64,000 bases of DNA from an uncultured Candidatus Bathyarchaeia archaeon (GTDB lineage: Archaea; Thermoproteota; Bathyarchaeia; Bathyarchaeales; Bathyarchaeaceae): NCBI GenBank assembly GCA_964347995.1, contig CAYGBA010000001.1:2244-66243 (forward strand), in the 5' to 3' direction. The number at the start of each line of letters is the position of its first letter. Within the stretch, counting starts at the first letter, position 1. Below the pieces are notes generated by a model that was not told the origin of the DNA, did no database searches, and saw only the letters and a program-made list of their open reading frames with translations. Made by a program: the position numbers and the translations under genes. Positions 18,317 through 59,007 of the stretch are shown here, one piece after another.

Positions 18317-19564
18317 CTAGGATTTATTGACTTCGAGAACGATTCCAGCAGCTGCGGCTCCTTTCTTGCCTTCGACTACGAATCTTCCAAGCTGAGGGAT
18401 TTCAGAATATTTTTCTAAGCATGTTGGGTCGAGGGTGGAGAATTTCACCCTGGCGATGTCTCCATCTTTTAGGCCACCATGAAGCTTCTGTTGTATTGCC
18501 AGATTGATGGGGTCCATTTTTTCTAAGATTTTGTGGACTTTGCATTTTCTTTCTGTGGTTCCGTAGCGGATTTTTAGTACATCGTTGTTTTCTATCTGGA
18601 TATCTGTCAGCACTATTATCTGTGCTGGGAAGCTTTGAATGGTTTCTGCGTTGTTTTGGGGGTAGCTGATCACTTCGCCTCTTTTAATTTGGTCTACTCC
18701 GTCTACAGAAAGCTCCACGGAGTCGCCCGGTTCAGCTCTGTCTACTTCTTTTCCGAAAAGCTCTATCTTCCTTATCAGCCCTTTCTGTGTGGATGGACTG
18801 AAGAAGAGGTCTTTTCCTGTTTCTATGCTTCCCGTTTCGATCTTGCAGATGATGATCTTTCCTTTCTCTGTATCATACACGTCTTGGACGAAGCCTCTCA
18901 GCGGCTTGTCTGTTGGTAGAGCCGGGGGAGTGATGTTCTGATCTAGAGCGTCGATGAATGTTGTACCATCATACCATGCCATTTTTCGGGACTTCTTGAA
19001 AACGTTGTCTCCTCTCAAGGCGGATAATGGAATGGTTGGAACGTTCTTGTAGTCCAGAGAATCTAGGAATATGTTTAGCCTTTCCAAGATTTCTTTGAAT
19101 ATTGACTGATCATAGTTTATTTCGTCCATCTTGTTTACTGCAACGACTAGTTGCTTGATCCCAAGGGTCTTCACGAGATATGCGTGTTGTTTAGTTTGGT
19201 CTTTTATTCCCTCTTTTGCGGAGATTACTAGGACGGCTGCGTCGGCTTGCGATGCCCCTGTTATCATGTTTTTGATGAATTCCTTGTGGCCTGGGCAATC
19301 GATGATTGTGTAGAGATGCTTTTTGGTTTTGAATGGCGTATGCATGATGTCTACGGTTAGTCCGCCTTTTCTTTCCTCTTCTAGGCTGTCTAATAGGTAT
19401 GAGAATTTGAATCGTCCTCTGCCGGCTCTTTGGGTTTCTTCTTTGATTTCCTGGATTTTTTGTTGTAGGATGGCTTTGGAGTCGTAGAGGAGTCTCCCTA
19501 TGAGGGTGGATTTCCCATGGTCTTTGTGGCCTATGATTACGAGGTTTATGCTGGATTTGGTCAT
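18317..19564 (-). CDS. cysN: CysN-like translational-type GTPase (EF-1alpha/EF-Tu superfamily; sulfate adenylyltransferase subunit 1-like)
   Basis: G motifs are GHKDHGKST, DCPGH, NKMD and SAL. The segments STLIGRLLYDSKAI, VVAVNKMDEINYDQSIF and PLSALRGDNV resemble CysN more than canonical aEF1A. It lies in an operon with a CysD-like gene. Confidence 0.6.
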   Translation of the reverse strand: MTKSSINLVIIGHKDHGKSTLIGRLLYDSKAILQQKIQEIKEETQRAGRGRFKFSYLLDSLEEERKGGLTVDIMHTPFKTKKHLYTIIDCPGHKEFIKNMITGASQADAAVLVISAKEGIKDQTKQHAYLVKTLGIKQLVVAVNKMDEINYDQSIFKEILERLNIFLDSLDYKNVPTIPLSALRGDNVFKKSRKMAWYDGTTFIDALDQNITPPALPTDKPLRGFVQDVYDTEKGKIIICKIETGSIETGKDLFFSPSTQKGLIRKIELFGKEVDRAEPGDSVELSVDGVDQIKRGEVISYPQNNAETIQSFPAQIIVLTDIQIENNDVLKIRYGTTERKCKVHKILEKMDPINLAIQQKLHGGLKDGDIARVKFSTLDPTCLEKYSEIPQLGRFVVEGKKGAAAAGIVLEVNKS

Positions 19565-20253
19565 CTTTTGGCACTTTTTATTGTTTTATGGAAGTCTGTT
19601 ATTTTTGGCAGGTGGAGATTTAGCTTTCTGTTTGTTGAGTAGTAGCCCTTTTGGGTGTGGTCGCCATATCTTCCGATGGCTTTCATGCCGTGGTCGGAGA
19701 TGATGAGCGTGAGGTCATTTGTATTTCTGATTCTTGCGGCTAGGTTTTCTAGTTCTGTGTAGACTCTTTTCATTTTTGTGTAGACGCCGAAGCTTAGGTG
19801 TCCTATGGCATCTGCTAGGTTGAAGTAGGCCATTAGTAGATCGTATTGTTCTAGGCTGTTGAGGAATTCTGTTTTGTTTTCTTGGTGGTTTTTCCAGATG
19901 AGTTTGTCGTATTCTTGGATTGTAGCGTTTTCGTTGAAGTAGGCTTTTAGGAGTTGTCTTTCTTTTTTGTGGTTTTCTTGTTTGTAGGCGTATGCTGGGA
20001 CGTCTATGGCTTTTGGGGAGTCAAAATAACAGAGGAAGGTTTCTTCTCTCTTCAGTTGGAATTCCCACTGGCCTTCTATAGGGATTTTTGCTTCCATGTT
20101 TTTGCCTGTGAGGAAGGAGGCCCAGAGAACTATGGTCCTTGGTTCCTTGAAGTTTGTGATGTCGGTTTGACCGTGCTCTTCTTGCATTAGGTTTTTGCAG
20201 TTGAATGTTTTGACTAGGTTTTGGTCTAGCGCGTCGAGGGCTAGGATTATCAA
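19561..20253 (-). CDS. Small alkaline-phosphatase-superfamily protein (nucleotide pyrophosphatase/phosphodiesterase-like core)
   Basis: ILALDALD (N-terminal metal Asp), EPRTIVLWASFLTGK (nucleophile Thr context, compare PT.T.P.H..L.TG), and IISDHGM...GDH. Its stop overlaps the cysN-like start by 4 nt. Confidence 0.6.
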   Translation of the reverse strand: MIILALDALDQNLVKTFNCKNLMQEEHGQTDITNFKEPRTIVLWASFLTGKNMEAKIPIEGQWEFQLKREETFLCYFDSPKAIDVPAYAYKQENHKKERQLLKAYFNENATIQEYDKLIWKNHQENKTEFLNSLEQYDLLMAYFNLADAIGHLSFGVYTKMKRVYTELENLAARIRNTNDLTLIISDHGMKAIGRYGDHTQKGYYSTNRKLNLHLPKITDFHKTIKSAKR

Positions 20254-20266
20254 TGTGGGTCCTGTC

Positions 20267-20764
20267 CTACATGTATCCTAGACCGCGTAGTTTCTGCATC
20301 ATGTAAGCCTTCTCTTTGTCCTGGGCTCTGCCTGCGCGTTCCGAGATTTTTGTGATTTTTAGCTCTTGGATGATCTGGTCTATGGTTCGCGCGTCTGATG
20401 AGATGGGTACGGTACAGGGTTGGCATCCTAGGCTTCTGTAGCGTTTCCCGTTTTTTGCGAAGTAGAGGGGGTTTATGGGGAGGTTTTCTTCTTTGACGTA
20501 TTGCCAGGCTTCGAGTTCTGTCCAGTGGAGGATGGGGTGGACTCTCATGTGTGAGTAGTCTTCTGCGGGTTTTACGTATATGTCCCACATTTCTGCGGGT
20601 TGGTTTTTGTAGTCCCATCTGAAGTCTTCGTCTCTGGGGGAGAAGATTCTTTCTTTGACTCTTATGCCGTGTTCGTCTCTTCTTATGGAGACGAGGAGCG
20701 CGTCGAACTGTTCTTTTTCTATTGGTTCTTTAATGAGTTGCCCTGCGTGTTTAATCCCGCCCAT
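20267..20764 (-). CDS. cysD: CysD-like protein lacking the N-terminal PP-loop half (truncated sulfate adenylyltransferase subunit 2; possibly a pseudogene)
   Basis: The 165 aa align with roughly the last 190 residues of E. coli CysD as I recall it (ARRDEE..R.KERI.S.RD...RWD.KNQ.PE.W..Y; W.ELD.WQYI; R.LGC.P.T; TSERQGR..D...MELKKRQGYF). No SGGKDS-type PP-loop is present, and all three upstream frames carry stops. Confidence 0.65.
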   Translation of the reverse strand: MGGIKHAGQLIKEPIEKEQFDALLVSIRRDEHGIRVKERIFSPRDEDFRWDYKNQPAEMWDIYVKPAEDYSHMRVHPILHWTELEAWQYVKEENLPINPLYFAKNGKRYRSLGCQPCTVPISSDARTIDQIIQELKITKISERAGRAQDKEKAYMMQKLRGLGYM

Positions 20765-21224
20765 AGGCTTGTCAGAATGGAAATTGATTTTGGTTTCTCA
20801 AATGTATGGTTGGCGGGGTTGCACAAAATGGATAATTCGCCGATTTCTGACGTTGAGTGTTTTGACAGCTTTGTTGAGCTCTTTTGGATGAACAGTTCCG
20901 AATTCGTCCGATCAGCCGAAGTCCGACACATCGGCAATTTTTCTAAAATATTCGCGTGCATTGTAACTCAGAGCTTGGATAAATCTAATTGCCAAACTAT
21001 TGATCCTAGGGATGACAAAAATCCATGTTAAATCATACCAATCTGGTAATACCTTTGAAAGCCATTCAACGGTCGCCGGAAGCGGAGCTTATTACTCCTT
21101 CTAATTTTCAATCTAGATGTTTTCCGTATTGCCGTTCAAAATAGTCGTAACGGCAAGAGTCCAATACAATTAAGGCATCCCAGTCCCATTCTTTTATCTT
21201 AGTTATTTGAAATTTTTCGGGTTA
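20765..21224 (-). pseudogene. Decayed gene remnant; contains an AP-superfamily N-terminal-like fragment
   Basis: My minus-strand translation of 21221-21111 gives PEKFQITKIKEWDWDALIVLDSCRYDYFERQYGKHLD*. The LDS.RYDY motif is the N-terminal metal-binding motif of the NPP/AP family. Downstream frames give short protein-like stretches (FIQALSYNAREYFRKIADVSDFG*, SDEFGTVHPKELNKAVKTLNVRNRRIIHF) broken by stops. The 560-bp gap has no intact ORF. Confidence 0.35.
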
Positions 21225-21327
21225 CAAGTATCTTCTGAAAGGGAAAATAGCGTTTCTGATTCTAGACTCAACAGAAGTCCTCAAATCAAGCATTCTACTA
21301 ACCCCTCGTCAGCTGTCACATAATATC

Positions 21328-28290: not shown

Positions 28291-29391
28291 TTATTTCATC
28301 TCCCTAGAAGAATAGTATTTCATAAGGATCTTGGCAATTTCAGGTCGCATCTTTTTTTCCGACGGCATAGTCGCTTGTCTGATTGTTTCTCTCAGTTTTG
28401 TCATACTCATACTAACATGGTTTTCATCGCGGTGTCCGCAGGTTCTGGTCGTGACTATTAGGTCGCAACGCTTACAGTAGAAGGCTTCTTTGAATTTGAT
28501 CGGTTCTATCCCTAAATCCAACTCGTCAAACATTTCATGCGCCCTATAAGGTTCATATAGCCCTCCAATTCCAGCCATGTCTCGACCAATCACAAAGTGG
28601 GTGCATCCGTAATTCTTCCTTACGATGGCAAGGAAAATCGCTGCTTTGGGTCCTGCGTATCGCATGCCTATTGAAAGGGTGTTAAGGTATACACGATCTT
28701 CAGGATAGTAATTGTCTATGAGAAGTCTGTAAGATTCGACTATCGCTTCTGGCGGGAAATCGCTGGATTTCAATTTTCCTATAACCGGATGGATAAGCAG
28801 CCCATCAACTTTTTCCATGACGTTTCTTTGGAGATATTCATGAACCATGTGTGGGGGATTTCTCGTTTGGTAGCCAGCGACAGTCTTCCAGTGACGCTTT
28901 TTGAAAGCTTCCCGAGTGCCCAGCGGTGTTGATTCTTGTGAAACTCTGTGAAAAAGGTCGATCATGCCTCCAAGCGCAGTTTCACCCATGTTGTAGATAT
29001 CGCTGACATTCGGATGACTTCGATCTGTAGTACCGTAAACTTGTATTGCCAGTTCTTTCTTGTTATACTGAAATTTCTCTTCTAAATGCATAATTGCAAT
29101 AGACTTACCGTTATATCCTAGGACTAGGTCATCACCTTCCCCTAATTCTCTTACAATTTTCGCGTTTTTTTCCCCTGAAGGACAAAATATGATCGGTATT
29201 GTCCAAACAATGTCATTTGCCAGTCTTTCCTTGTAAATTACGTTTATGTAGTCTTCTCGGCACATGAAGGCTTCTAGGGGACTGAAGGCTCCTATGGCAA
29301 TTTTTTCTACATCTAAGGCTGTCGTCCAATCTACTTCAATTTTTGGCAATTCGCTTGTTTCAATAGACTCGCTGTTTACGATTCTGTTCAC
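28291..29391 (-). CDS. sat: Sulfate adenylyltransferase (ATP sulfurylase, homo-oligomeric Sat type) with C-terminal Cys-rich tail
   Basis: AGYQTRNPPHMVHEYL (QxRNPxHxxH), VIGRDMAGIG, and the tail CKRCDLIVTTRTCGH. Confidence 0.85.
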   Translation of the reverse strand: MNRIVNSESIETSELPKIEVDWTTALDVEKIAIGAFSPLEAFMCREDYINVIYKERLANDIVWTIPIIFCPSGEKNAKIVRELGEGDDLVLGYNGKSIAIMHLEEKFQYNKKELAIQVYGTTDRSHPNVSDIYNMGETALGGMIDLFHRVSQESTPLGTREAFKKRHWKTVAGYQTRNPPHMVHEYLQRNVMEKVDGLLIHPVIGKLKSSDFPPEAIVESYRLLIDNYYPEDRVYLNTLSIGMRYAGPKAAIFLAIVRKNYGCTHFVIGRDMAGIGGLYEPYRAHEMFDELDLGIEPIKFKEAFYCKRCDLIVTTRTCGHRDENHVSMSMTKLRETIRQATMPSEKKMRPEIAKILMKYYSSREMK

Positions 29392-29435
29392 GAGTTTGTT
29401 GCCGTGTGGAAGCGGCAGACTTCATCCATCCTGTT

Positions 29436-30152
29436 TCATTTATGGGCGTGTAGACCGCATTCTTTCTTTTCTGGTGATTCCCACCACCATCTTCCAGCCC
29501 TGATGGCTTCTCCAGGTTTGATGGGTCTCGTACAGGGTTCACAGCCGATGCTGGTGTAACCTTTGTCGTAAAGCGTATTGTGAGGCACATTGCTTTTCTT
29601 GACGTACTCCCAGACCTTGTCATCGGACCAGTCAGCCAAGGGGTTTATCTTCACGATGCCTCCATGTGCATCATCGATCTCGATTTTCTTAACTTCTGTT
29701 CTTGTGACGCTTTGTCCTCTCCTTAACCCCGTGATCCATGCATCTAGGCCACTGAGGGCTCTCATCAGGGGCTCAACTTTTCTTATCTTGCAACAAAGTC
29801 TACGGTTACTAACACTCCCGTAGAACAGGTTCATCCCACGTTCTCTAACCATTTTTTCAACTGAAGCCGTATTTGGATAATAGACTTCCATCTGCAAACT
29901 GTATCTCGCTCGTATCCGCTCCATCAAACTGTATGTTTCTTGGTCAAGCCTACCAGTGTCGAGTGTGAATACCCTGAACTTAGGGTCTATTTTCGATAGC
30001 ATGTCAATCAGAGTGACATCTTCTACACTAAAACTTGAAGAGAGTGCCAGCCTAGGGTGCAACTCATCCACAGCCCATTTCAATATCTCCTGTGGTTCTT
30101 TGTTTTCAAAACTCTCAGCGAGTTTTTCTACTTCGCCTTTGCTTAGCTTCAT
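29436..30152 (-). CDS. cysH: APS/PAPS reductase (CysH), Fe-S-type signature
   Basis: The C-terminal ECGLH motif, plus CCKIRKVEPL and GCEPCT cysteines typical of 4Fe-4S APS reductases. Confidence 0.85.
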   Translation of the reverse strand: MKLSKGEVEKLAESFENKEPQEILKWAVDELHPRLALSSSFSVEDVTLIDMLSKIDPKFRVFTLDTGRLDQETYSLMERIRARYSLQMEVYYPNTASVEKMVRERGMNLFYGSVSNRRLCCKIRKVEPLMRALSGLDAWITGLRRGQSVTRTEVKKIEIDDAHGGIVKINPLADWSDDKVWEYVKKSNVPHNTLYDKGYTSIGCEPCTRPIKPGEAIRAGRWWWESPEKKECGLHAHK

Positions 30153-30351
30153 TTTCGTATCCGCAAGCCTCCTTGTTTCACCACTCCTGTTCTTAATGCA
30201 TATATTTACTACATCTCAATAGTAAATATATAAGGTTTACTCCTTTTGAGTGGTAAAAATTTTTCGTCAAACCAAACCAGCCGAAATTCCTACACTGGAA
30301 AGAAAGAACGCTAAGTAAGAAATGAATTTGAGGCTGTGCTCAGAAAAAACG

Positions 30352-31194
30352 CTAGAGCTTCGTTGCTTTGTGTTTCCATAACAGTCTGTACATCAAAGCA
30401 AGTCCTCTAACGACGCTTTGATGCGACGTGATGGCTGCTTCACGCAGGAAAAAGGGAACTCCAGGATCTTCAACAAGGAACAAAGCCTTTCCCCCCGTCT
30501 TTGGGTCAACTATGCAGCCCCTAATCGGAATCTCATCAGTGAAACGGATCTCAACCCCACCCGCCAGCACCTTGTTGATGCCCCCCAACATCTTTGCTTG
30601 CTTTTCTCTGTCTTCAGGCCCCAGCATGTCCGGCTTCATCAAGATCAGTTTCAATGAGACACCCCGCGCTATAGCCTCCCCAAGTTTTTCAGCAACTTCC
30701 GGGAAGTACTCTATGGCCCTTGAAAGGATCTGGATTTCCGTCTCCGCTGCGTCGTAAAGTTTTTTTGTTTCCTCACGTGAAACTTCGCCCACGCTGACGA
30801 TGCGTAGAAGAGGAACCCCTGGAACTCCTTTCTCACCCTTCAAATAAATCTTCTTGCTGACTTCTACGAGATCTTGTGCGTACTCCTCAAGGGTTCTAAG
30901 CTTCTGCTTAAGCTCTTTCATGCTCAAAGACACAAGAGAGCTTGCGATATCCTCGAGAGGGCGCGGGTTGTACAGCACAGGTCTTCCAGGTCTTATCGTT
31001 ACAAGTCCCATTTTTGCAAGCTGGTCCAAAACGCCGTAGATGCGCGCACTCGGCACTTTACTAGTCTTGCTTAGGGTCGTTGCCTTTGTCTCTCCCAGAA
31101 GTATTAGGTGCGCAAGCGCCGCGGCTTGGTACTCGTTTAAGCCCATGTTTATGAGCAGCAACCTGGTTTCATTGATGTCTTTTTCAAAGGCCAA
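30352..31194 (-). CDS. trmB: TrmB-family transcriptional regulator
   Basis: The N-terminal wHTH LGLNEYQAAALAHLILLGETKATTLSKTSKVPSARIYGVLDQLAKMGLV is typical TrmB. Size is 280 aa. It is divergent from the UDP-sulfoquinovose synthase gene. Confidence 0.8.
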   Translation of the reverse strand: MAFEKDINETRLLLINMGLNEYQAAALAHLILLGETKATTLSKTSKVPSARIYGVLDQLAKMGLVTIRPGRPVLYNPRPLEDIASSLVSLSMKELKQKLRTLEEYAQDLVEVSKKIYLKGEKGVPGVPLLRIVSVGEVSREETKKLYDAAETEIQILSRAIEYFPEVAEKLGEAIARGVSLKLILMKPDMLGPEDREKQAKMLGGINKVLAGGVEIRFTDEIPIRGCIVDPKTGGKALFLVEDPGVPFFLREAAITSHQSVVRGLALMYRLLWKHKATKL

Positions 31195-31346
31195 GAGTTA
31201 ACTACTCTCCTATAGATAATTTGAACAACCTGCTTTTAAATCCTTTACATTGTGTGTTTCAACTTACGCGAAGGAAAAAACTGTACACAGAAAAGGTTAT
31301 AAATGAGAATAATTAACTTCAACCAAGTAGTAAAATCGGTGTTCAT

Positions 31347-32513
31347 ATGAAGGTTTTAATTACTGGTATGGATGGATACATCGGTTGGGCTTTAAGCCTA
31401 CACATGCTAAACCGCGGACACACGGTAATTGGAATAGATAACTTTCTTAGGAGGAAGATGGTGAGGGCGGTCAACTGCCAGAGCGCAATTACTATACAAC
31501 CCATGAAAAAGAGGTTAGAGCTGATTAAGCAGGTTCTTGGAAAGGAAATTGCCTTTGAGCAAGGCGACATGTTGGACTACGACTTTCTTAAAGCTGTCTT
31601 GCATAAGTACAAGCCGAATTCCATTGTGAACCTTGCACAACAGCCATCCCCCGCTTACAGCATGATCAACGCAAAGCACGCCACATTTTCCCAAAGGAAC
31701 AACGTTTGTGGGATACTCAACCTCATGTGGGCCATGAGAGAGGAGACTCCGGATGCGCATGTGACCACATTGGGCACCATGGGTGAGTATGGACAGCCCA
31801 ACATGCCCATTCCCGAAGGTTTTTTCACTGTGGAGTATAAAGGAATGAAGGATACTCTGCCGTTTCCACGCCAAGCTGGAAGCTTCTACCATTGGTCAAA
31901 GGTTCAAAGCTCCGACAACGCCTTTTACTGTTGTAATCTCTGGGACTTGAAGGCAACCGACATAATGCAAGGAGTCGTCTACGGGACGCAAACCGATGAA
32001 GTGATTTTGAACGAGGGGTTGCGCACAAGGTTCGACTTTGACGAGTGCTTTGGAACAATGATAAACAGGGCCTGTGCATGCGCCATAACTGGGCATCCCA
32101 TAATTCCATACGGGAAAGGCTGGCAAACCCGGGGATATATCGCGCTAAGAGACAGCATCCAGTGCTTAACCCTTTCAACGGAGAACCCGCCAACCGATGA
32201 GAATAGTGTCCATGGTTACCGTGTGATGAACCAGTTTGACGAATGCTACAGCTGCAATGAGATAGCGGATAGAGTGGGCTTGGTAGCGGAGAAACTTGGA
32301 TTCGAGACGGAGGTGAAGCATATAGAAAACCCACGAGTAGAGAAAGAGGAACACTTCTATCAGCCCATCCATGAGAAGCTTTACAGACTCGGCTTCAAAC
32401 CGCTCCATACTTTGGAAGAGGAGCTGGAGATCATGCTCACTGATCTGGACCACTGGAAGGACAGGATTTTGGCATACGAACATAAAATAATGCCTAAAAT
32501 CACTTGGCGTTGA
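31347..32513 (+). CDS. agl3: UDP-sulfoquinovose synthase (SQD1/Agl3 family)
   Basis: MKVLITGMDGYIGWAL (SQD1-type GxDGYxGW), TLGTMGEYG, FPRQAGSFYHWSKV and ATDIMQGVVYG. Length is 388 aa, as in SQD1/Agl3. Confidence 0.85.
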   Translation: MKVLITGMDGYIGWALSLHMLNRGHTVIGIDNFLRRKMVRAVNCQSAITIQPMKKRLELIKQVLGKEIAFEQGDMLDYDFLKAVLHKYKPNSIVNLAQQPSPAYSMINAKHATFSQRNNVCGILNLMWAMREETPDAHVTTLGTMGEYGQPNMPIPEGFFTVEYKGMKDTLPFPRQAGSFYHWSKVQSSDNAFYCCNLWDLKATDIMQGVVYGTQTDEVILNEGLRTRFDFDECFGTMINRACACAITGHPIIPYGKGWQTRGYIALRDSIQCLTLSTENPPTDENSVHGYRVMNQFDECYSCNEIADRVGLVAEKLGFETEVKHIENPRVEKEEHFYQPIHEKLYRLGFKPLHTLEEELEIMLTDLDHWKDRILAYEHKIMPKITWR

Positions 32514-32624: not shown

Positions 32625-33254
32625 GTGATGGCAAACCCTAAAGTCTCCGTGATCATACCTGCATACAATGAAGCTATGTCGATAGGCAAAGTGGTCACCA
32701 ACTGCAAGTCATTTTGCGATGAGATAATTGTCATAGATGATGGTAGTACAGATGATACAGCTGAAATTGCAAAGAAAAGTGGAGCACTATTGGTTCGGAG
32801 TGAGGAGAATCTTGGCATAACCAAAGCTATTCAGAAAGGACTGGAAGCTGCTCACGGCGAGATAATCGTAACAATGGACGCAGATGGTCAACATGACCCA
32901 TCAGATATACCGAATCTAATTAAACCAATAACGGATGGAACAAGCGATGTGGTGCTTGGCATAAGAGACGAAATTCCAAATCTCTCAGAAAGAATAATTA
33001 ATGCGCTTGCAAACCTAGGCGGAAAATGTTCGGACGCTGGAACAGGGTTCAGAGCTATAAGAGCGAACATAGCTAAGAAGATGAAACTGCATGGAGCATG
33101 CCTCTGTGGAACATTCCTTCTGGAGGCGCGTAAGCGAGGCGCCAGAATATTAGAGATTCCTATAAAAAAGAAGAGAAGAATCTATGGGAGAAGAAAGGCA
33201 AAGACAAAGCACATAAGGCAATTCTTCTATGTCGCACGAGACCTAATCTTCTAG
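32625..33254 (+). CDS. Short GT2 glycosyltransferase (dolichyl-phosphate sugar synthase-like)
   Basis: VSVIIPAYNEAMSIGKVV, IVIDDGSTDDT and TMDADGQHDP. Confidence 0.75.
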   Translation: MMANPKVSVIIPAYNEAMSIGKVVTNCKSFCDEIIVIDDGSTDDTAEIAKKSGALLVRSEENLGITKAIQKGLEAAHGEIIVTMDADGQHDPSDIPNLIKPITDGTSDVVLGIRDEIPNLSERIINALANLGGKCSDAGTGFRAIRANIAKKMKLHGACLCGTFLLEARKRGARILEIPIKKKRRIYGRRKAKTKHIRQFFYVARDLIF

Positions 33255-33387: not shown

Positions 33388-34371
33388 ATGGACATACTAG
33401 TAACTGGTGGAGCAGGCTACATCGGAAGCGGGCTTCTCCTCAAGCTGGGCGAAGAGTTCCCTGAAGCCACTATAACTTCCATGGACAACTTAACAACAGG
33501 AGATTACCGCCACATTGAATATCTCAAGAGAGACAAGCGTTATCGCCTTCTGATCGGTGACATAAGAAAAAAGTCTGACACAAAAAGGGCCATAACCCAA
33601 GATACGAATATGATCATACACTTGGCAGCTATGCCAGGCGTAAAATTATGTAACGATCAGCCAAAAGAAGCTATAGAGACTAATATTTATGGCACCCATC
33701 TCCTTCTGGAAGAAGCTGTTAATCACAATGTCAAGAAATTTGCTTTTACCTCTTCGGCCGCCGTATACGGAACACCAGAAGAGCACCCTATCAGTGAAAG
33801 GCACCCTCTCAAGCCCATCAACCTCTATGGTGTTAGCAAAGTAAGCGGTGAAAAGCTTGTTAACGGACACCACATCACTAGCGGCTTAAGCACAACAACA
33901 CTTCGGTTATCCAACGTTTATGGTCTAGGTGCATACACCAAGTGGAAGACCGTTATCCCCCGGTTTGTCTGGCAGGCAGTGCACAATAAGGCTCTGACGA
34001 TCCGCGCAGATGGAAAACAGCAACGCAACTTTGTACATGTACAAGATGTTATAGACGCCATAATCCGATGCTTAAAGGCTCCTCAACAGGCAGTTGCAGG
34101 CGAAATCTTCAACGTAGGTGGAGAAGCCTTAAGCGTTAACCAAATCGCCACGAATGTAATTCGCGAAGCCAGGCAAAGGCTGGGCAAAGAAGTTTCAAAG
34201 GCATACACGCAGTTGGAAACTGGCGAAGTTTACACATCGGAATTCAACTACGATTGGAAAAGAGCTTCTCAAAAGATAGGCTATAAGCAGAAGCGAGAAG
34301 TCTCGGAAGGCGTTTCTGCGTTGTTTGACTACGCCTTAAAAATCAAGGCTACACAAAGTCATGACGATTAA
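33388..34371 (+). CDS. NAD-dependent sugar-nucleotide epimerase/dehydratase (extended SDR)
   Basis: MDILVTGGAGYIGSGL and YGVSKVSGE (YxxxK). Confidence 0.8.
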   Translation: MDILVTGGAGYIGSGLLLKLGEEFPEATITSMDNLTTGDYRHIEYLKRDKRYRLLIGDIRKKSDTKRAITQDTNMIIHLAAMPGVKLCNDQPKEAIETNIYGTHLLLEEAVNHNVKKFAFTSSAAVYGTPEEHPISERHPLKPINLYGVSKVSGEKLVNGHHITSGLSTTTLRLSNVYGLGAYTKWKTVIPRFVWQAVHNKALTIRADGKQQRNFVHVQDVIDAIIRCLKAPQQAVAGEIFNVGGEALSVNQIATNVIREARQRLGKEVSKAYTQLETGEVYTSEFNYDWKRASQKIGYKQKREVSEGVSALFDYALKIKATQSHDD

Positions 34372-34392: not shown

Positions 34393-35376
34393 TTAGTTGT
34401 CTTTCAGTAACTCCATTATCATGTTTGCGAGGTTTTTAGCCCCTTCTGGTAGCGTCGGAACCTTCCTCCCTCTTGCTTCTTTTATAGCATCTAAGAGACT
34501 CTGTAACTCTATTTTGGAAACCAAGACAGCGTTTATTTTTCTCGCCAAATATTCTGCGTCCTCTATTCCTGCTGTTCTTGTCCAATCAGGATTTGGAGCC
34601 AAAACTACGGGTTTTTTATAAATGGCCGCATCCAACAACGTTCCACCAAAATGAGACACCACCAGTTCGGCTCCGGCTAGAAGCTTGTGGAATTCTTCTG
34701 TAAATGTTATCACCTTCCACTCGGGATGTTGCTTAATGTAGGGCGCGGCGTCCACTCTGCCGGTCTGCAAAACAACATTGCTTAGTCTGCTCTTTGACAA
34801 GGTATCAAACAAAAGCTTGTGTCCATAGGTGCCTCCTGAAGCTAGAATGTATCCTCCATCCCATGGCGTGATCTCTGGCTTACAAAGCGTGGGGCCCACA
34901 ACCACACCTTTTAGAAATCTACTCTGTTCCTTCCAATGCAAAGCCGTTAATGCTGAAATAGGCTGTAGTACGCGAGCGGTTCTAGAAGGTTTTGTGAAAC
35001 GAACAAGGCTCTCAATGTTAACCACTGGAACACCTCTCATCCAAGCCAAAAGTGCCGGTGGACCACAGAAGTTGCTTCCTGTGCTCACAACAACATCAAA
35101 CTCATGGAAATCTACTTTGACAGAATCAATAAGCGCCTTGATGAGACGGGCTGCGAAAATGTAGTCGGGAGTTTTTGGACCTCGAGGCTTCAGTAGAAAC
35201 TCTACTTTGCCAAATTTGCTCAGCCTTCTCTCGCTTAATGTGTCTCCCTCGGGCGCGAGAAATGATAGAGACACTTTCTTGTGAAGTGTTTGGGCTAGCG
35301 CATATGCAATTCCAGTGTGCCCACCGCCACCAGCAAGAATCAGTACGCGCCCCTTCACCTTGGCTCCCCTTGACAC
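34393..35376 (-). CDS. agl24: Agl24-like GT-B glycosyltransferase (MurG/Alg13-Alg14-like, GT28-type)
   Basis: The N-terminal VLILAGGGGHTGIAYALAQ (GGxGGH motif) with a GT28-like C-terminal half (LVVSHFGGTLLDAAIYKKPVVLAPNP). It lies adjacent to aglH and aglB. Confidence 0.6.
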   Translation of the reverse strand: MSRGAKVKGRVLILAGGGGHTGIAYALAQTLHKKVSLSFLAPEGDTLSERRLSKFGKVEFLLKPRGPKTPDYIFAARLIKALIDSVKVDFHEFDVVVSTGSNFCGPPALLAWMRGVPVVNIESLVRFTKPSRTARVLQPISALTALHWKEQSRFLKGVVVGPTLCKPEITPWDGGYILASGGTYGHKLLFDTLSKSRLSNVVLQTGRVDAAPYIKQHPEWKVITFTEEFHKLLAGAELVVSHFGGTLLDAAIYKKPVVLAPNPDWTRTAGIEDAEYLARKINAVLVSKIELQSLLDAIKEARGRKVPTLPEGAKNLANMIMELLKDN

Positions 35377-35431
35377 TTCTTCATCCAGAAGTTATATAGT
35401 TGTCTTTTCTACGTTCGCTCTCGGAATCCGT

Positions 35432-36451
35432 TTACAATGGTAGAAAGGGTAGTACCGCAAAGCAAATTTGGATTAATATCAGAATTATTGTAACTTGTTT
35501 CTCGGTCATTGGCCTTAAGTTCATCAGAATATGAGTCCAACTATACACTTTTTTCCCATAGGGCGGATCAAGTTTCCCATCTTTTCTCAATTTTCCTAGA
35601 CAACTCGCATTGAATTTGGACCTCAGTTTCAGAAAGAACTCGATAATGAAGGGTAGCATTACGAGAATTCCGCTTCTTTCCGTGTTTCCAACAATTACTC
35701 CAGCAGCTATCATTGATCCAAGCAGATAAGTTAGGGAATCTCCAGGCAGAATTTTCGCAGGATACCAGTTAAACTTAATGAAACCAACCAGAGCGGCGAG
35801 GGTTACGAGAAATATAACTGAGCCGATTCTTTCACATACCAAAGCGAAGACTCCCAAACCAAGGAAATAAGCAATTCCCATTCCTGCTTCCAATCCGTTG
35901 AATCCCGCAAGCATATTGACAACATTAGATGCCCCCACCATTCCAAGCGGCACCAACACAAGAGGATAAAGAATCCCAAAGTCAACGCGTCCTATGAATG
36001 GAATCGACATGTGCGTTACTCCGGCGCTAATCGCCATCAAGGGTACCGCCGCTGGCAAGGTAAGTAGGGGCTTAAGCCACTGTGGAAAACCAACTCTAAT
36101 ATCAGAACCTTCCTTGGTCTTCACTCTTCTTGATTTGACATTTAAGTCATCCAGCAGACCCACAAACATGACAATAAGAACGGATGAGGTTACCGCCAAG
36201 AGCGGTTTCAAATCCCCCTCGGAACCGGAGAGAAATGTCTGCAAACCTATGTAGCTTAACAATCCAGCTAAGACACCGAAAGCAACACAGATTCCGCCTG
36301 AGCTTGCCAACTTCGGTTTTTCCCTCTTATGCAAATCCAAGCCTACTATCCCAGCGACGTACAGGAATCGCGTGAAGTAAGGAGTAATAAAGAGGGTTAC
36401 AATGAAGGATATCAGAACAGAGATGAGTAATATCATCATCAGGCGCACCAA
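35432..36451 (-). CDS. aglH: UDP-GlcNAc:dolichyl-phosphate GlcNAc-1-phosphotransferase (AglH; Alg7/MraY/WecA family)
   Basis: Polytopic membrane protein with LLDDLN, NVVNMLAGFNGLEAGMG and PAKILPGDSLTY motifs of the polyprenyl-phosphate HexNAc-1-P transferase family. Confidence 0.8.
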   Translation of the reverse strand: MVRLMMILLISVLISFIVTLFITPYFTRFLYVAGIVGLDLHKREKPKLASSGGICVAFGVLAGLLSYIGLQTFLSGSEGDLKPLLAVTSSVLIVMFVGLLDDLNVKSRRVKTKEGSDIRVGFPQWLKPLLTLPAAVPLMAISAGVTHMSIPFIGRVDFGILYPLVLVPLGMVGASNVVNMLAGFNGLEAGMGIAYFLGLGVFALVCERIGSVIFLVTLAALVGFIKFNWYPAKILPGDSLTYLLGSMIAAGVIVGNTERSGILVMLPFIIEFFLKLRSKFNASCLGKLRKDGKLDPPYGKKVYSWTHILMNLRPMTEKQVTIILILIQICFAVLPFLPL

Positions 36452-36625
36452 ACACTTCGCTTTAGATTTGACCGATCAGACATTAGGGTTATGATTGAAG
36501 AATTTAAAAATATTATTCCAGATAGCCTGATGTTCAACAAGCTGTTGAATACTTTGACAAAATGCGTTTATGGAGGGATGCTCTTCGTGAAACGCGACCA
36601 AGGGCTAACCGTAAGAGAAATATAA

Positions 36626-38806
36626 ATGGTTAACCGAAATGGGTCGAAGAGAAGATTGTTAAGAATGAAGATCAGAAAATTGTTTAGCAGGGAGAAAGTC
36701 TTTGATACTTTGAAAAGGGCTACGGCTGTTCGCTTTAGAATTTCGCATTCCTCGCTTCTGCAGCTTTCCCTACTTTTCCTCATTCTTTTGTTGGCTTTGA
36801 CAGTTAGGATGCTTCCCATCCGGTGGGGTCTTTACCTCTCAGAATTCGATCCCTATTTCCAATTTCGCGTGACAAAACATGCAGTTGAAAACGGACTCCA
36901 CAACTGGGCTACCGGATGGTCAAATATAGATCCCTCACGAGACCTAATGAGTTGGTATCCTTATGGTCGGAAAATCTCGACTGCTTATCCAGGGATACCA
37001 CTTACCGCAGCATTCTCATATTTAGTAGCCCATGCACTGGGCTTGCCTCTAAACGTGTTTGAGTTTTGCGTCGTCTTCCCCGCCATAATGGGAACGTTAA
37101 CATGCCTAGCCATATATTTCCTAGGAAAAGATATGGGCGGCAAACACGTAGGCATCCTTTCCGCACTTTTCCTAGCGCTGAGTTCAGCCCACATCAGCCG
37201 AACATCCCTTGGATTTTTCGACGACGAAACCGTGGGAATATTTGGTCTATTACTCTTTTTCTTCTTCTTCCTCAGATCCATCGAAAGTGAAAGACCAGTA
37301 AGAAACTGTGTGGGCTATGCGGTTGCTGCGGGGCTTTCGCTAGGATGGATTTTTGCCTCGTGGGGTGCTTCAAGATACGTAGTTGATATGGCGGCCCTTT
37401 TCGTTTTTGTTCTGCTCTTGCTAAAGAGATATTCCTCTCGGTTGCTTTTCTCTTACAGCACAGGACTGGGCATAGCTCTTTTCATCGCTGTCAATGTCCC
37501 AAAATTAGGATTCCGATTCTTGACAGGAACCGAAATCTTGTCAGCAGCTGCGGTATTTCTATTATTGTCCATGTATGAGATTACCCGCCATATCAAAACC
37601 GTCAGGAATAAGGCCGTTTTCATTTCACTCTTTCTAGGACTTTGCGCGGGTCTATTCCTTATGCTTTCTTCATTTGGATATGTCGCGCCCTTGGCAGGAA
37701 AATTCGTATCTGTCATAAATCCGCTCGAACGCCTCGCTAACCCCCTCAGACAGTCTGTCCAAGAACACAGACCCGCCGCTTGGGGATCCTTCTACTACGA
37801 TTTTGGGATAGGCGCCTTCTTTGTGCCTGTCGGCTTGTTCTTTGCTGTGCGAAATCCTTCAAACCGGAATATCTTCTTGACAGTCTTTGGCTTGACGGCA
37901 ATCTACTTTGCAGGTTCCATGGTGCGTTTAACCCTAATTCTGGCACCAGCTATCAGCCTCCTCTGGGCGTTGGCTCTAGTCCGATTGATCAAACCCTTCA
38001 CCACTGTCATGAAGGCAGCCCCCATAATTCCACGGAGAGGGGCAGGCCTTGCGGCTCATGTAGGGAAGGAATTCAGCGGCGCCTTCTTAATAGTGATGTT
38101 CCTCTTGCTCACACTCACTTTCGTCTTACCCACTCAAAGAGTATTTAACCATGCGTATTCCCCCACGACAATTGCAGCGGCAAGTATGCCGGTAAAGCCT
38201 GGTGAGACGGTCAACGACTGGATTGACACTTTGGAGTGGATACGAACAAACGAAAGCGTCGAGGTGGTGGCTAGCTGGTGGGACTACGGATACTGGATTA
38301 CAAACCTCGGCAATAAGACGTCACTTGCGGATAACGGCACATGGAACAAAACCCAAATAGCACAGATTGGCCTAATGTTCATGTCAAATGAAACTGCGGC
38401 GGTCAAAATCCTCCAAAAATACCACGCAACTCATGTCCTGGTCTTTGTAACGTGCGATGGTCAAGGCAGAGATGTGGGGTGGGGCGATGAGGGTAAATGG
38501 ATGTGGATGGCGCGCATTGCGGACTCGGTCTTCGGCGGTTTCGAATATGATGAAGAGAATCATCTAATAGTTGGCTATCAAGAATTAGTAACAGATGAAC
38601 AAGGACAAACCGCTAGGGTATGGACAGAAAAGGGCAAGCAGACAGTTATATACAAGTTGATGGCGTATGCAAAAGATAAGAGGACGGGCTCCTCACATTT
38701 GACTTATCCTTTGACACACTTCGAAGAAGCATATATTTCTGAAGGAAAAGACTATGGAGGAGTGATACCGCTCGTATGCGTATATAGAATCAATTATACA
38801 ACGTAG
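36626..38806 (+). CDS. aglB: Oligosaccharyltransferase AglB (STT3 homolog)
   Basis: WWDYGYWIT (WWDYG motif), an N-terminal polytopic domain with EFDPYFQFR (DxD-like first loop), and a soluble C-terminal domain. The start is uncertain (36626 or M at 36668). Confidence 0.9.
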   Translation: MVNRNGSKRRLLRMKIRKLFSREKVFDTLKRATAVRFRISHSSLLQLSLLFLILLLALTVRMLPIRWGLYLSEFDPYFQFRVTKHAVENGLHNWATGWSNIDPSRDLMSWYPYGRKISTAYPGIPLTAAFSYLVAHALGLPLNVFEFCVVFPAIMGTLTCLAIYFLGKDMGGKHVGILSALFLALSSAHISRTSLGFFDDETVGIFGLLLFFFFFLRSIESERPVRNCVGYAVAAGLSLGWIFASWGASRYVVDMAALFVFVLLLLKRYSSRLLFSYSTGLGIALFIAVNVPKLGFRFLTGTEILSAAAVFLLLSMYEITRHIKTVRNKAVFISLFLGLCAGLFLMLSSFGYVAPLAGKFVSVINPLERLANPLRQSVQEHRPAAWGSFYYDFGIGAFFVPVGLFFAVRNPSNRNIFLTVFGLTAIYFAGSMVRLTLILAPAISLLWALALVRLIKPFTTVMKAAPIIPRRGAGLAAHVGKEFSGAFLIVMFLLLTLTFVLPTQRVFNHAYSPTTIAAASMPVKPGETVNDWIDTLEWIRTNESVEVVASWWDYGYWITNLGNKTSLADNGTWNKTQIAQIGLMFMSNETAAVKILQKYHATHVLVFVTCDGQGRDVGWGDEGKWMWMARIADSVFGGFEYDEENHLIVGYQELVTDEQGQTARVWTEKGKQTVIYKLMAYAKDKRTGSSHLTYPLTHFEEAYISEGKDYGGVIPLVCVYRINYTT

Positions 38807-44114: not shown

Positions 44115-44131
44115 GCAGAAAATCTCCCTGA

Positions 44132-44437
44132 TCATTTTACAGCTCTAATAGCTTTTGCGACATCCAGTAATTGCAGCTTTTCCTCTAGGATGTTCATTGT
44201 TTTTTCAGATTCTAGGATGATCGCGGTCTCAAGGAGGGTGGTGAGGCCTCTCTCGTTTGCAAGTGGCCCCTGTTGCCATTGGTGAAGTAGCGTTCTTGCT
44301 AGACCATTCGGCATCTTGTCAGTGCTCTTCGATTTGAGGATGAGATCCATCAGTTTGGTGGAGAGCTTCTCTCGCTTTGTCAATGGGACCATTTCGACTA
44401 TTCTTCGATAATCCATATCAATCGCCTTTCTTAACAT
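44132..44437 (-). CDS. Small helical hypothetical protein (101 aa) immediately upstream of mer
   Basis: The ORF abuts or overlaps the mer start. No motif was recognised. Confidence 0.4.
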   Translation of the reverse strand: MLRKAIDMDYRRIVEMVPLTKREKLSTKLMDLILKSKSTDKMPNGLARTLLHQWQQGPLANERGLTTLLETAIILESEKTMNILEEKLQLLDVAKAIRAVK

Positions 44438-56110: not shown

Positions 56111-56118
56111 GCCTCATA

Positions 56119-59001: not shown

Positions 59002-59007
59002 TATAGA

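What the first reader, a model, noticed from the sequence alone, without database searches (positions are those of the whole stretch)
28291..32513. Dedicated sulfite-generating pair (Sat + CysH) embedded next to UDP-sulfoquinovose synthase, with a TrmB regulator between them
- Seen in sequence: sat (QTRNPPHMVH, GRDMAG) and an Fe-S-type cysH (CC...CxxC, ECGLH) sit inside a glycosylation island.
- Seen in sequence: they are separated from an SQD1/Agl3-type UDP-sulfoquinovose synthase only by a divergently transcribed trmB-family regulator.
- Seen in sequence: no sulfite reductase or cysteine synthase lies nearby.
- Established knowledge: SQD1/Agl3 uses UDP-glucose plus sulfite, and Agl3 supplies sulfoquinovose for the Sulfolobus N-glycan.
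- Inference: this Sat-CysH pair may exist to feed sulfite to glycan sulfonation rather than to cysteine synthesis.
- Inference: the sugar-sensing-type TrmB regulator may coordinate the two halves.
Basis: partly seen in the sequence, partly recalled or inferred. Interest (0 to 1): 0.68.

Follow-up and report, generated by a model that had tools for sequence, protein, structure and literature searches.

The report
Sulfite supply module for archaeal sulfoquinovose
In this Bathyarchaeia genome, two enzymes that turn sulfate into sulfite sit beside the enzyme that builds the sulfonated sugar sulfoquinovose, and both appear to be controlled by one local regulator with a recognisable DNA binding site, which could explain why these archaea keep an apparently incomplete sulfate-reduction pathway.

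Summary
**Observation: confirmed.** sat, an Fe-S APS-reductase cysH, a TrmB-family gene and an SQD1/Agl3-type UDP-sulfoquinovose synthase lie at the stated coordinates, inside an N-glycosylation island (GT2, epimerase, Alg13/14-like, AglH, AglB). The source is a Bathyarchaeia MAG. No sulfite reductase or cysteine synthase domain occurs anywhere in the 64 kb.

**Interpretation: supported by comparative evidence (all in silico).**
- **Agl3 subclade:** this Agl3 belongs to a divergent subclade (IVNLAQQP in place of IVH[LF]GEQ). All 21 informative loci of that subclade have a CysH-family gene within 2 kb, against 3 of 67 canonical loci.
- **Alternative cassette:** near relatives (AglB 93% identical) carry trmB→agl3'→cysH'→tauE at the same position, with agl3' and cysH' overlapping by 8 nt.
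- **Shared operator:** a palindrome, TTACTA-N8-TAGTAA, brackets the TATA box of the cysH-sat promoter (30206-30256). A degenerate copy lies between TATA and ATG of agl3 (31314-31333). It occurs in 17 of 18 trmB-bearing loci, always within 150 nt of trmB, and essentially nowhere else.

The regulator has TrmBL2-type architecture and lacks a sugar-binding subdomain. The best operators are in the trmB-cysH spacer, not the 152-bp divergent region. A truncated cysD remnant lies 10 kb away.

**Not tested:** whether a sulfite reductase exists elsewhere in the genome.

The parts
28291..29391 (-). sat: homo-oligomeric ATP sulfurylase (sulfate + ATP -> APS), second gene of the cysH-sat operon
   Evidence: NF003166 at 435.6 bits (cut-off 387); PUA_2 plus ATP-sulfurylase domains. 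Closest solved structures are 8A8D and 1V47. 87-88% identical orthologues occupy the same position in L085, L088 and L106.
29436..30152 (-). cysH: [4Fe-4S] thioredoxin-dependent APS reductase (APS -> sulfite), so no APS kinase is needed
   Evidence: TIGR02055 at 272.5 bits (cut-off 235.3). Matches 2GOY at 213 bits with the CC, CxxC and ECGLH cysteines aligned, against at most 121 bits for PAPS reductases.
30206..30256 (-). cysH-sat promoter. Operator O1 (30237-30256, 2 mismatches), TATA box (30226-30235, CCTTATATAT in cysH sense) and operator O2 (30206-30225, perfect TTACTA-N8-TAGTAA). The SD sequence GGAGG lies at about 30168-30174.
   Evidence: A homologous O1-TATA-O2 module follows trmB in type-A, type-B and type-C relatives.
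30352..31194 (-). TrmBL2-type TrmB-family regulator with a conserved TTG start: winged HTH, long helix, and a PLD-like C-terminal domain without a sugar-binding subdomain
   Evidence: PF01978 at 59 bits. The profile hits TrmBL2 (5BPD) over its full length at E = 4e-16, but hits TrmB (3QPH) only over the DNA-binding domain. Foldseek gives the same ranking on a low-confidence model, pLDDT 62. More than 100 Bathyarchaeia homologues of 64-94% identity were found.
31233..31246 (-). trmB promoter TATA/BRE (AAAGGATTTAAAAG in trmB sense), conserved across cassette types
31297..31333 (+). agl3 promoter. TATA box TTATAAAT (31297-31304) and a degenerate operator, TAACTTCAACCAAGTAGTAA (31314-31333, 2 mismatches), lying between the TATA box and the ATG.
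   Evidence: A homologous site sits at the same position in L084, L085, L088, L106 and in type-C L145.
31347..32513 (+). agl3: UDP-sulfoquinovose synthase of the Asn-type subclade (IVNLAQQPS)
   Evidence: NF041015 at 520.9 bits, full length. SQD1 (1QRR) at E = 1e-104. TMG...YxxxK fingerprint present (PMC8987622). Subclade placement and CysH association.
32625..33254 (+). GT2 glycosyltransferase of the polyprenyl-phosphate-sugar synthase type (PpgS/AglJ-like). Candidate sulfoquinovosyl transferase (inferred).
   Evidence: PF00535; NF058614 and TIGR04182 matches below cut-off. Conserved next to trmB/agl3 in type-A and type-B loci at 65-78% identity.
33388..34371 (+). NAD-dependent sugar epimerase/dehydratase, conserved partner of the GT2
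   Evidence: PF01370 at 176.8 bits. 72-89% identical orthologues are adjacent in type-A and type-B loci.
34393..38806 (.). N-glycosylation core: Alg13/14-like fused GT (34393-35376, -), AglH-like GlcNAc-1-P transferase (35432-36451, -) and AglB/STT3 oligosaccharyltransferase (36626-38806, +)
   Evidence: Up to 86%, 94% and 93% identical in L096.
18317..21327 (-). Decayed alternative sulfate-activation locus: EF1A/CysN-like GTPase (18317-19564), phosphodiesterase-like ORF (19561-20253), CysD lacking its PP-loop half (20267-20764), and frameshifted fragments (20765-21327)
   Evidence: Relative L096 has an intact CysD (91% identical over the shared part), plus APS kinase, sulfotransferase and TauE.

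Best explanation
The region is a self-contained sulfoquinovose module inside the N-glycosylation island of a Bathyarchaeia archaeon.

Pathway.
- Sat makes APS from sulfate.
- The Fe-S CysH reduces APS to sulfite.
- The Asn-type Agl3 adds that sulfite to UDP-glucose to give UDP-sulfoquinovose.
- The conserved neighbouring GT2 and epimerase, together with the Alg13/14-like, AglH and AglB machinery, then use it for a glycoconjugate, most likely the N-glycan.

Regulation.
- The TrmBL2-type regulator encoded between the two halves binds the palindrome TTACTA-N8-TAGTAA.
- Two copies sandwich the TATA box of the cysH-sat promoter.
- One degenerate copy lies between the TATA box and the start codon of agl3.
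- At these positions a bound TrmB-family protein should block TBP/TFB/RNA polymerase. The regulator most likely represses both promoters together and releases them in response to an unknown signal.
- This would keep production of toxic sulfite matched to its consumption.

What is shown and what is inferred.
- Shown: gene identities, conserved linkage, and operator conservation with its strict co-occurrence with the regulator gene.
- Inferred: metabolic flux, the repressor mode, the ligand, and the glycan destination.
For: - Gene identities.
- Agl3-CysH coupling: 21 of 21 informative Asn-type loci have a CysH-family gene within 2 kb, against 3 of 67 His-type loci (tree).
- Two non-orthologous solutions occupy the same chromosomal slot in near relatives. 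Type A is sat<-cysH<-trmB<>agl3. Type B is trmB->agl3'->cysH'->tauE. AglB and AglH are up to 93-94% identical between them, but agl3 is only 57-61% and cysH only 28-33% identical.
- The agl3' and cysH' ORFs overlap by 8-17 nt in 11-13 of 15 scored type-B loci, depending on start-codon choice.
- Independent cysH(-sat)-agl3/sqdB adjacency occurs in DPANN locus L021 and in Actinomycetota loci L010 and L022.
- In type-C L145 the same slot holds a YeiH-type putative sulfate transporter.
- The type-A block is conserved on a 2.23-Mb contig with different flanks.
- Operator: in the window there is a perfect copy and a 2-mismatch copy 31 bp apart around the TATA box upstream of cysH, plus a 2-mismatch copy upstream of agl3.
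- 17 of 18 trmB-bearing loci have a site with at most 1 mismatch. All 21 such sites lie within 150 nt of trmB. In 1.58 Mb of trmB-less loci there are 3 sites, 2 of them at a contig end directly upstream of an agl3' gene.
- Characterised TrmB-family sites are TACT-N3-AGTA and TACT-N7-8-GAGTA, and they repress when at or downstream of TATA/TSS (PMC4158304).
- No sulfite reductase or cysteine synthase occurs in 64 kb. cysI is nearly absent from Bathyarchaeia that carry cysND, cysC and cysH (PMC7110647).
- With limiting sulfite, Agl3 accumulates UDP-glucose-5,6-ene (PMC4388408), which gives a rationale for co-regulation.
- The CysD truncation in the window fits Sat having taken over sulfate activation.
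Against: - Everything is in silico. There are no expression, DNA-binding or enzyme data.
- The whole genome could not be searched for a sulfite reductase (Sir, Fsr or Dsr-like). Sulfite from this pair could therefore also feed assimilation.
- The Agl3 here scores below the NCBIfam equivalog cut-off (520.9 < 575).
- It carries Asn and Pro at positions equivalent to His95 and Arg101, whose alanine mutants inactivate Sulfolobus Agl3 (PMC4388408). Pro at the Arg position is, however, also present in homologues that pass the cut-off, such as L145.
- The loci used for the association test are phylogenetically related, so the p-value overstates independence.
- The agl3 operator copy is degenerate (2 mismatches), and the window-wide count at 2 or fewer mismatches is not by itself significant: 4 found against 1.8 expected.
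- The regulator model has low confidence (pLDDT 62).
- The destination, N-glycan versus lipid or other glycoconjugate, rests on gene context only.
Confidence: 0.75

Rival explanations
1. sat-cysH is the organism's ordinary assimilatory sulfate-reduction pair. Sulfite goes mainly to a sulfite reductase encoded elsewhere and on to cysteine. The position beside agl3 is incidental, or Agl3 merely takes a share of a general pool, as in plant plastids.
For: The enzymes are standard assimilatory types. The rest of the genome could not be inspected. In plants, APS-reductase-derived sulfite is shared between sulfite reductase and SQD1 (papers listed).
Against: No sulfite reductase or cysteine synthase lies within 64 kb or in the flanks of L082, L096 and L145. 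The 21-of-21 linkage with Asn-type Agl3, the overlapping ORFs in type B, and the shared operator all point to a dedicated role. cysI is reported in only one Bathy-6 genome in a survey of Bathyarchaeia (PMC7110647).
Confidence: 0.12
2. The pathway to UDP-sulfoquinovose is as described, but the sugar goes into a sulfoglycolipid or another surface polymer rather than the AglB-dependent N-glycan.
For: In plants and bacteria, SQD1/SqdB homologues serve sulfolipid synthesis. The adjacent GT2 is of the polyprenyl/lipid-phosphate sugar transferase type, which could equally act on a lipid acceptor. None of the 80 GTDB agl3/sqdB loci had aglB, aglH or an alg13/14-like gene within 10 kb.
Against: In this lineage the module is fixed next to the Alg13/14-like, AglH and AglB genes across type-A, type-B and type-C loci. 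The only characterised archaeal use of Agl3 is the Sulfolobus N-glycan (PMC4388408).
Confidence: 0.2
3. The Asn-type 'Agl3' is not a true UDP-sulfoquinovose synthase. It could be a 5,6-dehydratase, or it could make a different sulfonated or thio-sugar using a CysH-derived sulfur species.
For: It scores below the equivalog cut-off (520.9 and 461.8 against 575). The His/Glu to Asn/Gln changes lie in a motif where His95Ala inactivates Sulfolobus Agl3 (PMC4388408).
Against: Full-length homology to SQD1 at E = 1e-104, with the TMG...YxxxK fingerprint and Glu147/Tyr148 conserved. Obligate pairing with a sulfite-forming enzyme is what a sulfite-consuming synthase would predict.
Confidence: 0.08

Closest known systems
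Sulfolobus acidocaldarius Agl3 and the sulfoquinovose-containing N-glycan pathway
   Same: An SDR-type UDP-sulfoquinovose synthase that uses UDP-glucose and sulfite, serving archaeal protein N-glycosylation. The TMG...YxxxK fingerprint and Glu147/Tyr148 are conserved (PMC4388408, PMC8987622).
   Different: Here the synthase belongs to a divergent Asn-type subclade that falls below the NCBIfam equivalog cut-off. It is genetically tied to its own sulfite source (Sat + CysH) and to a local regulator. No such linkage came up in the papers I could search. The original Agl3 paper (PMC4391026) was not available to read, so the Sulfolobus neighbourhood is not verified here.
Plant plastid SQD1 fed by APS reductase
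   Same: The same flux logic: APS reductase produces sulfite, and SQD1 consumes it with UDP-glucose. The closest solved structure is SQD1 (1QRR).
   Different: In plants the sulfite pool is shared with sulfite reductase and sulfite oxidase, the genes are unlinked, and the product goes to a thylakoid sulfolipid. Here the genes form a co-regulated cluster with no sulfite reductase nearby, and the context is protein glycosylation.
Bacterial and archaeal assimilatory sulfate reduction (Sat/CysDN, CysH, sulfite reductase), e.g. Pseudomonas APS reductase 2GOY and Methanothermococcus Sat 8A8D
   Same: Sat and the Fe-S CysH are bona fide members of these enzyme families.
   Different: The downstream half of the pathway (sulfite reductase, cysteine synthase) is absent from the locus. 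The genes sit under a glycosylation-linked operator rather than in a cysteine regulon context.
TrmB family regulators (TrmB, TrmBL1/Tgr, Halobacterium TrmB, TrmBL2)
   Same: An N-terminal winged HTH (PF01978), a coiled-coil helix and a PLD-like domain. The operators are palindromic with TACT/AGTA half-sites placed at or next to TATA/TSS, as for TACT-N3-AGTA and TACT-N7-8-GAGTA (PMC4158304).
   Different: The architecture is that of TrmBL2: short, with no sugar-binding subdomain. TrmBL2 is described as a chromatin-like general binder, whereas this protein has a specific local operator with different spacing (TTACTA-N8-TAGTAA). Its predicted targets are sulfite supply and sulfoquinovose synthesis, not sugar transport or glycolysis.

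Membership tests
UDP-sulfoquinovose synthase (SQD1/Agl3/SqdB) | Full-length homology to SQD1/Agl3, clearly separated from GalE and 4,6-dehydratases | tested here: met
   1QRR at E = 1e-104 over residues 2-388. NF041015 at 520.9 bits, against 41.5 bits or less for GalE and dehydratase models.
UDP-sulfoquinovose synthase (SQD1/Agl3/SqdB) | Active-site fingerprint [ST]MG...Yx3K, plus Glu147/Tyr148 | tested here: met
   T144-M145-G146-E147-Y148 and Y181-H182-x2-K185 are conserved. The fingerprint is taken from PMC8987622; residue roles are from PMC4388408.
UDP-sulfoquinovose synthase (SQD1/Agl3/SqdB) | Score above the curated NCBIfam equivalog cut-off (575 bits) | tested here: not met
   520.9 bits for the window protein and 461.8 for type-B L096. 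Canonical Bathyarchaeia L145 scores 619.
UDP-sulfoquinovose synthase (SQD1/Agl3/SqdB) | His95 and Arg101 (Sulfolobus numbering), essential in mutagenesis | tested here: not met
   Asn95 and Pro100 in the window protein. The Arg is also Pro in most prokaryotic homologues, including those above the cut-off. The His-to-Asn change is specific to this subclade.
UDP-sulfoquinovose synthase (SQD1/Agl3/SqdB) | Catalysis: UDP-glucose + sulfite -> UDP-sulfoquinovose | not testable with these tools
   Needs an enzyme assay. Indirect support comes from the obligate CysH linkage.
Thioredoxin-dependent [4Fe-4S] APS reductase (CysH) | Family score above cut-off, with the Cys-Cys...CxxC cluster ligands and the C-terminal ECGLH catalytic Cys | tested here: met
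   TIGR02055 at 272.5 bits (cut-off 235.3). All five cysteines align to 2GOY.
ATP sulfurylase (Sat) | PUA-like plus ATP-sulfurylase domains, QxRNPxH and GRD motifs, family score above cut-off | tested here: met
   NF003166 at 435.6 bits (cut-off 387); TIGR00339 at 327 bits (cut-off 323). Motifs read directly.
Sugar-sensing TrmB/TrmBL1 regulators | C-terminal effector domain that includes the sugar-binding subdomain | tested here: not met
   No PF11495 hit. The profile aligns to TrmB (3QPH) only over residues 11-101, but to TrmBL2 (5BPD) over residues 11-274. Foldseek gives the same ranking. TrmBL2 lacks the sugar-binding part (PMC4158304).
TrmB family (broad sense) | PF01978 winged HTH and a palindromic operator at target promoters | tested here: met
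   PF01978 at 59 bits (cut-off 25.6). A conserved TTACTA-N8-TAGTAA lies at the cysH-sat and agl3 promoters and co-occurs with the gene. Physical binding was not tested.
Complete assimilatory sulfate reduction to cysteine | Sulfite reductase and cysteine synthase linked to, or co-regulated with, sat-cysH | tested here: not met
   Neither occurs among the ORFs of the 64-kb window or in the flanks of relatives.
Complete assimilatory sulfate reduction to cysteine | Sulfite reductase anywhere in the genome | not testable with these tools
   The genome could not be read outside the fetched loci. Literature for the lineage reports cysI in only one Bathy-6 genome (PMC7110647).

The most novel reading that the evidence does not exclude
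The Asn-type Agl3 and its CysH partner may form a physical complex in which the sulfonate is passed on directly. This could happen from the CysH Cys-S-SO3 thiosulfonate intermediate or through a channel, so that free sulfite is never released. It would explain three observations: the obligate gene pairing, the 8-nt ORF overlap in type-B loci, and the subclade-specific substitutions (His to Asn, Glu to Gln, GTMINRACAC). It would also bear on the question, as I recall it from the SQD1 literature and did not verify here, of what the true in vivo sulfur donor of UDP-sulfoquinovose synthases is.
Probability: 0.18. Interest if true: 0.8.

Novelty: new variant of a known kind. Interest (0 to 1): 0.62.

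Why it matters
- **A puzzle in Bathyarchaeia genomics.** These abundant, uncultured sediment archaea often carry sulfate-activation and APS/PAPS-reduction genes but no sulfite reductase. The loci studied here indicate that the genes serve glycan sulfonation, and in relatives sulfation through PAPS and a sulfotransferase, rather than sulfur assimilation. That would change how such genes should be read in metagenomic sulfur-cycle inventories.
- **Annotation.** It identifies a subclade of UDP-sulfoquinovose synthases that current annotation rules miss; they are labelled GDP-mannose dehydratase or NAD-dependent dehydratase in MAG records.
- **Regulation.** It gives a concrete, testable regulon and operator (TTACTA-N8-TAGTAA) for a TrmBL2-type regulator outside the Thermococcales.
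- **Glycobiology.** It suggests that sulfoquinovose-bearing glycans extend beyond the Sulfolobales.
- **Enzymology.** The tight Agl3-CysH coupling offers a system for asking how sulfite is delivered to this enzyme class.

Tried and rejected
- **Exact-protein look-ups.** Look-ups of the window Agl3 and of its 99%-identical relative P0001 found nothing. The exact Sat returned only a 2.9-kb Logan contig.
- **Methanogen or ANME origin.** I first suspected this because Mer and HdrA2 score above their cut-offs. In that case sulfite might serve coenzyme M synthesis. Cluster names show the organism is Bathyarchaeia, and no CoM-biosynthesis genes are in the window.
- **Second active sulfate-activation system.** I considered whether the CysD/CysN-like genes at 18-21 kb are one. 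CysD lacks its PP-loop half, and no GKDS motif occurs in any upstream frame. Relative L096 has the intact gene.
- **Viral auxiliary-gene idea.** L083 looked like a mobile element, but the IMG/VR scan found no relative.
- **Regulator structure.** The AlphaFold2 model came out at low confidence (pLDDT 62), so I used it only for the coarse TrmBL2-versus-TrmB distinction, which the sequence profile shows independently.
- **Literature.** Searches for an explicit cysH/sat-agl3/sqdB gene-cluster report found none and only plant physiology papers. The original Agl3 paper (PMC4391026) is not held.

Full report
**1. What is there**

- **Sat (28291-29391, -).** It has PUA_2 and ATP-sulfurylase domains and passes the NCBIfam sulfate adenylyltransferase cut-off, 435.6 bits against 387. 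Its nearest solved relatives are the Methanothermococcus and Thermus ATP sulfurylases.
- **CysH (29436-30152, -).** It passes the thioredoxin-dependent APS-reductase model, 272.5 bits against 235.3. It aligns best with the Pseudomonas [4Fe-4S] APS reductase 2GOY. The Cys-Cys, CxxC and ECGLH cysteines all match, and it scores far better there than against PAPS reductases. APS is therefore reduced directly, and no APS kinase is needed.
- **Regulator (30352-31194, -).** It carries a TrmB-type winged HTH.
- **Agl3 (31347-32513, +).** It is a full-length match to the UDP-sulfoquinovose synthase model at 520.9 bits. That is slightly under the 575 equivalog cut-off, but the next family scores about 41 bits. 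It also matches plant SQD1 at E = 1e-104.

Downstream lie a GT2, an epimerase, an Alg13/14-like fused GT, an AglH-like transferase and AglB. Upstream lie more GTs, epimerases, a DegT aminotransferase and an acetyltransferase. Cluster-member names identify the source as a Bathyarchaeia MAG. Consecutive NCBI accessions in sister MAGs show the same gene order.

**2. No reductive sink nearby, and a decayed second activation system**

Pfam scans of all 57 ORFs of 90 aa or more, and of the partial ORFs at both window ends, found no sulfite reductase, cysteine synthase or serine acetyltransferase domain.

- It holds an EF1A/CysN-like GTPase, a phosphodiesterase-like ORF, and a CysD that matches only positions 117-301 of the CysD profile.
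- The upstream DNA carries frameshifted fragments and no PP-loop.

The close relative L096 (AglB 93% identical) has an intact CysD with its PP-loop. Inside the same island it also has an APS kinase fused to a cytidylyltransferase-like domain, a sulfotransferase and a TauE-family permease. In this lineage, then, sulfate-activation genes are part of the glycosylation island. In the window's own line the CysD route has decayed and Sat is present.

**3. Linkage of Agl3 with CysH**

Alignment shows the window Agl3 belongs to a subclade that reads IVNLAQQPS where canonical members and SQD1 read IVH[LF][GA]EQ[PR]S. The TMG...YxxxK fingerprint and Glu147/Tyr148 are retained (PMC4388408, PMC8987622).

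I collected 80 loci from GTDB species genomes and 61 from metagenomes, plus targeted contigs.
- Every informative locus of the Asn-type subclade (21 of 21) has a CysH-family gene within 2 kb.
- Only 3 of 67 informative His-type loci do (Fisher p about 2e-17).
- The loci are related, so this p-value overstates independence.

Two arrangements exist.
- **Type A** (window, L084, L085, L088, L106 = L082): sat<-cysH<-trmB<>agl3->GT2->epimerase.
- **Type B** (L091-L098, L100 and others): epimerase<-GT2<>trmB->agl3'->cysH'->tauE.

The scaffold genes are up to 93-94% identical between the two types (AglB, AglH). Agl3 is only 57-61% identical and CysH only 28-33%. The agl3+cysH content has therefore been exchanged at a fixed position while the pairing was kept.

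In type B the agl3' stop overlaps the cysH' start, usually by 8 nt. Independent linkages also exist. A DPANN archaeon has cysH-sat-agl3 in tandem, and two Actinomycetota have cysH flanking sqdB. In type C (L145, canonical Agl3), the slot after trmB holds a YeiH-type putative sulfate transporter. L014 and L025 have an APS kinase 1.7 kb from agl3.

**4. The regulator and its operator**

The trmB promoter and leader, and the TTG start codon, are conserved across cassette types.

A palindrome, TTACTA-N8-TAGTAA, is found as follows.
- In type B, two copies bracket the TATA box of the agl3'-cysH' promoter.
- In type A, the homologous O1-TATA-O2 module lies in the trmB-cysH spacer.
- In the window, O1 is at 30237-30256 (2 mismatches), TATA at 30226-30235, and O2 at 30206-30225 (perfect).
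- A degenerate copy at 31314-31333 lies between the agl3 TATA box (31297-31304) and the ATG. A homologous site occupies the same position in the other type-A loci and in type C.

The site tracks the regulator gene.
- 17 of 18 trmB-bearing loci have a site with at most one mismatch.
- All 21 such sites lie within 150 nt of trmB.
- In 1.58 Mb from 123 trmB-less loci there are three sites. Two of these sit at a contig end immediately upstream of an agl3' gene.
- L083 and L021 have agl3 and cysH but no trmB, and they have no site.

Characterised TrmB-family operators are TACT-N3-AGTA and TACT-N7-8-GAGTA. They repress when at or downstream of TATA/TSS and activate when upstream (PMC4158304). Sites that sandwich the TATA box, or lie between TATA and the start codon, therefore point to repression.

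The protein itself matches TrmBL2 (5BPD) over its full length at E = 4e-16. It matches TrmB (3QPH) only in the DNA-binding domain. A low-confidence model (pLDDT 62) gives the same ranking, with a PLD-like C-terminal domain. It is therefore not a sugar-sensing TrmB in the established sense, and its signal is unknown.

**5. Mechanism proposed**

Sat and CysH make sulfite from sulfate, and Agl3 consumes it with UDP-glucose. The regulator holds both promoters under common control. The rationale is that sulfite is toxic, and that Agl3 with limiting sulfite accumulates UDP-glucose-5,6-ene (PMC4388408). The conserved GT2 is of the polyprenyl-phosphate sugar synthase type. Together with the epimerase, it is the likely next step towards an AglB-dependent N-glycan.

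The gene identities, the linkage, and the operator conservation and co-occurrence are shown. The flux, the repression mode, the ligand and the destination are inferred.

**6. Comparison and novelty**

The enzymes are members of known families. The idea that APS-reductase-derived sulfite feeds SQD1 is established for plants (papers listed).

The following are new relative to what I could find.
- A genetically dedicated and co-regulated sulfite-supply module for an archaeal Agl3.
- The Asn-type Agl3 subclade that is obligately paired with CysH.
- The alternative cassettes at one locus.
- The operator of a TrmBL2-type regulator.

This also offers an explanation for the report that Bathyarchaeia carry cysND, cysC and cysH but almost never cysI (PMC7110647). 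I rate it a new variant of a known kind.

**7. Limits**

There are no experimental data. The genome outside the fetched loci could not be searched for a sulfite reductase. The Asn-type enzyme falls below the curated cut-off and lacks two residues shown to be essential in Sulfolobus Agl3. The association statistics are not corrected for phylogeny.

Noticed in passing
window 18317-21327 (-): Remnant of a CysD/CysN-type sulfate-activation operon. CysD lacks the PP-loop half, frameshifted phosphodiesterase-like fragments lie upstream, an intact phosphodiesterase-like ORF follows, and an EF1A/CysN-like GTPase scores below both the EF-1alpha and CysN cut-offs.
   Followed up: partly
L096 12021-21161: A close relative carries, inside the glycosylation island, a TauE permease, a sulfotransferase, an APS kinase fused to a cytidylyltransferase-like domain, and an intact CysD. 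This implies PAPS-dependent glycan sulfation alongside sulfonation.
   Followed up: partly
window 1136-2614 (-): A 492-aa fusion of a DHDPS-family domain with a formaldehyde-activating enzyme (Fae) domain. A second stand-alone DHDPS-family gene lies at 11588-12481.
   Followed up: no
window 34393-38806: An Alg13/14-like fused glycosyltransferase lies directly beside the AglH-like and AglB genes. This is a eukaryote-like set for a chitobiose-core N-glycan, conserved at 74-94% identity in relatives.
   Followed up: no
window 31192-31194 and all trmB relatives: The regulator gene uses a conserved TTG start codon with an in-frame stop just upstream in most relatives examined. A GGAGG-containing leader precedes it and is nearly identical between cassette types.
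   Followed up: partly
L083 8367-11137 and flanks: agl3'-cysH'-tauE occurs without trmB and without the operator. It is embedded among many small unannotated ORFs and an ARPP-1-family gene, so this may be a mobile element. A scan of viral contigs found no Agl3 relative.
   Followed up: partly
window 30352-31194 (protein residue 227): A single, nearly invariant cysteine (Cys227, motif RGC) lies in the C-terminal domain of the regulator across 24 homologues. Thiol-based TrmB-family regulators are known (PMC9426492), so a redox- or sulfite-reactive switch is conceivable.
   Followed up: no
window 39550-41757 (-): A 735-aa protein with a CarboxypepD_reg-like domain lies next to AglB. Its conservation varies widely between relatives (40-82%), as expected for a surface or S-layer-type glycoprotein.
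   Followed up: no
window 55520-62885 (-): A cluster of pyruvate:ferredoxin oxidoreductase subunits, a small ferredoxin, an HdrA2-type HdrA::MvhD fusion (1283 bits, cut-off 1100) and a GltD/HdrC-like Fe-S flavoprotein. Mer lies at 43119-44135. This is H4MPT- and Hdr-based metabolism in a Bathyarchaeia genome.
   Followed up: no
L130, L133, L136, L138: A second, separate Asn-containing SqdB-like clade (IFNFAHIPS) with no adjacent cysH. Two of these loci have a sulfotransferase-like gene within 3 kb.
   Followed up: no
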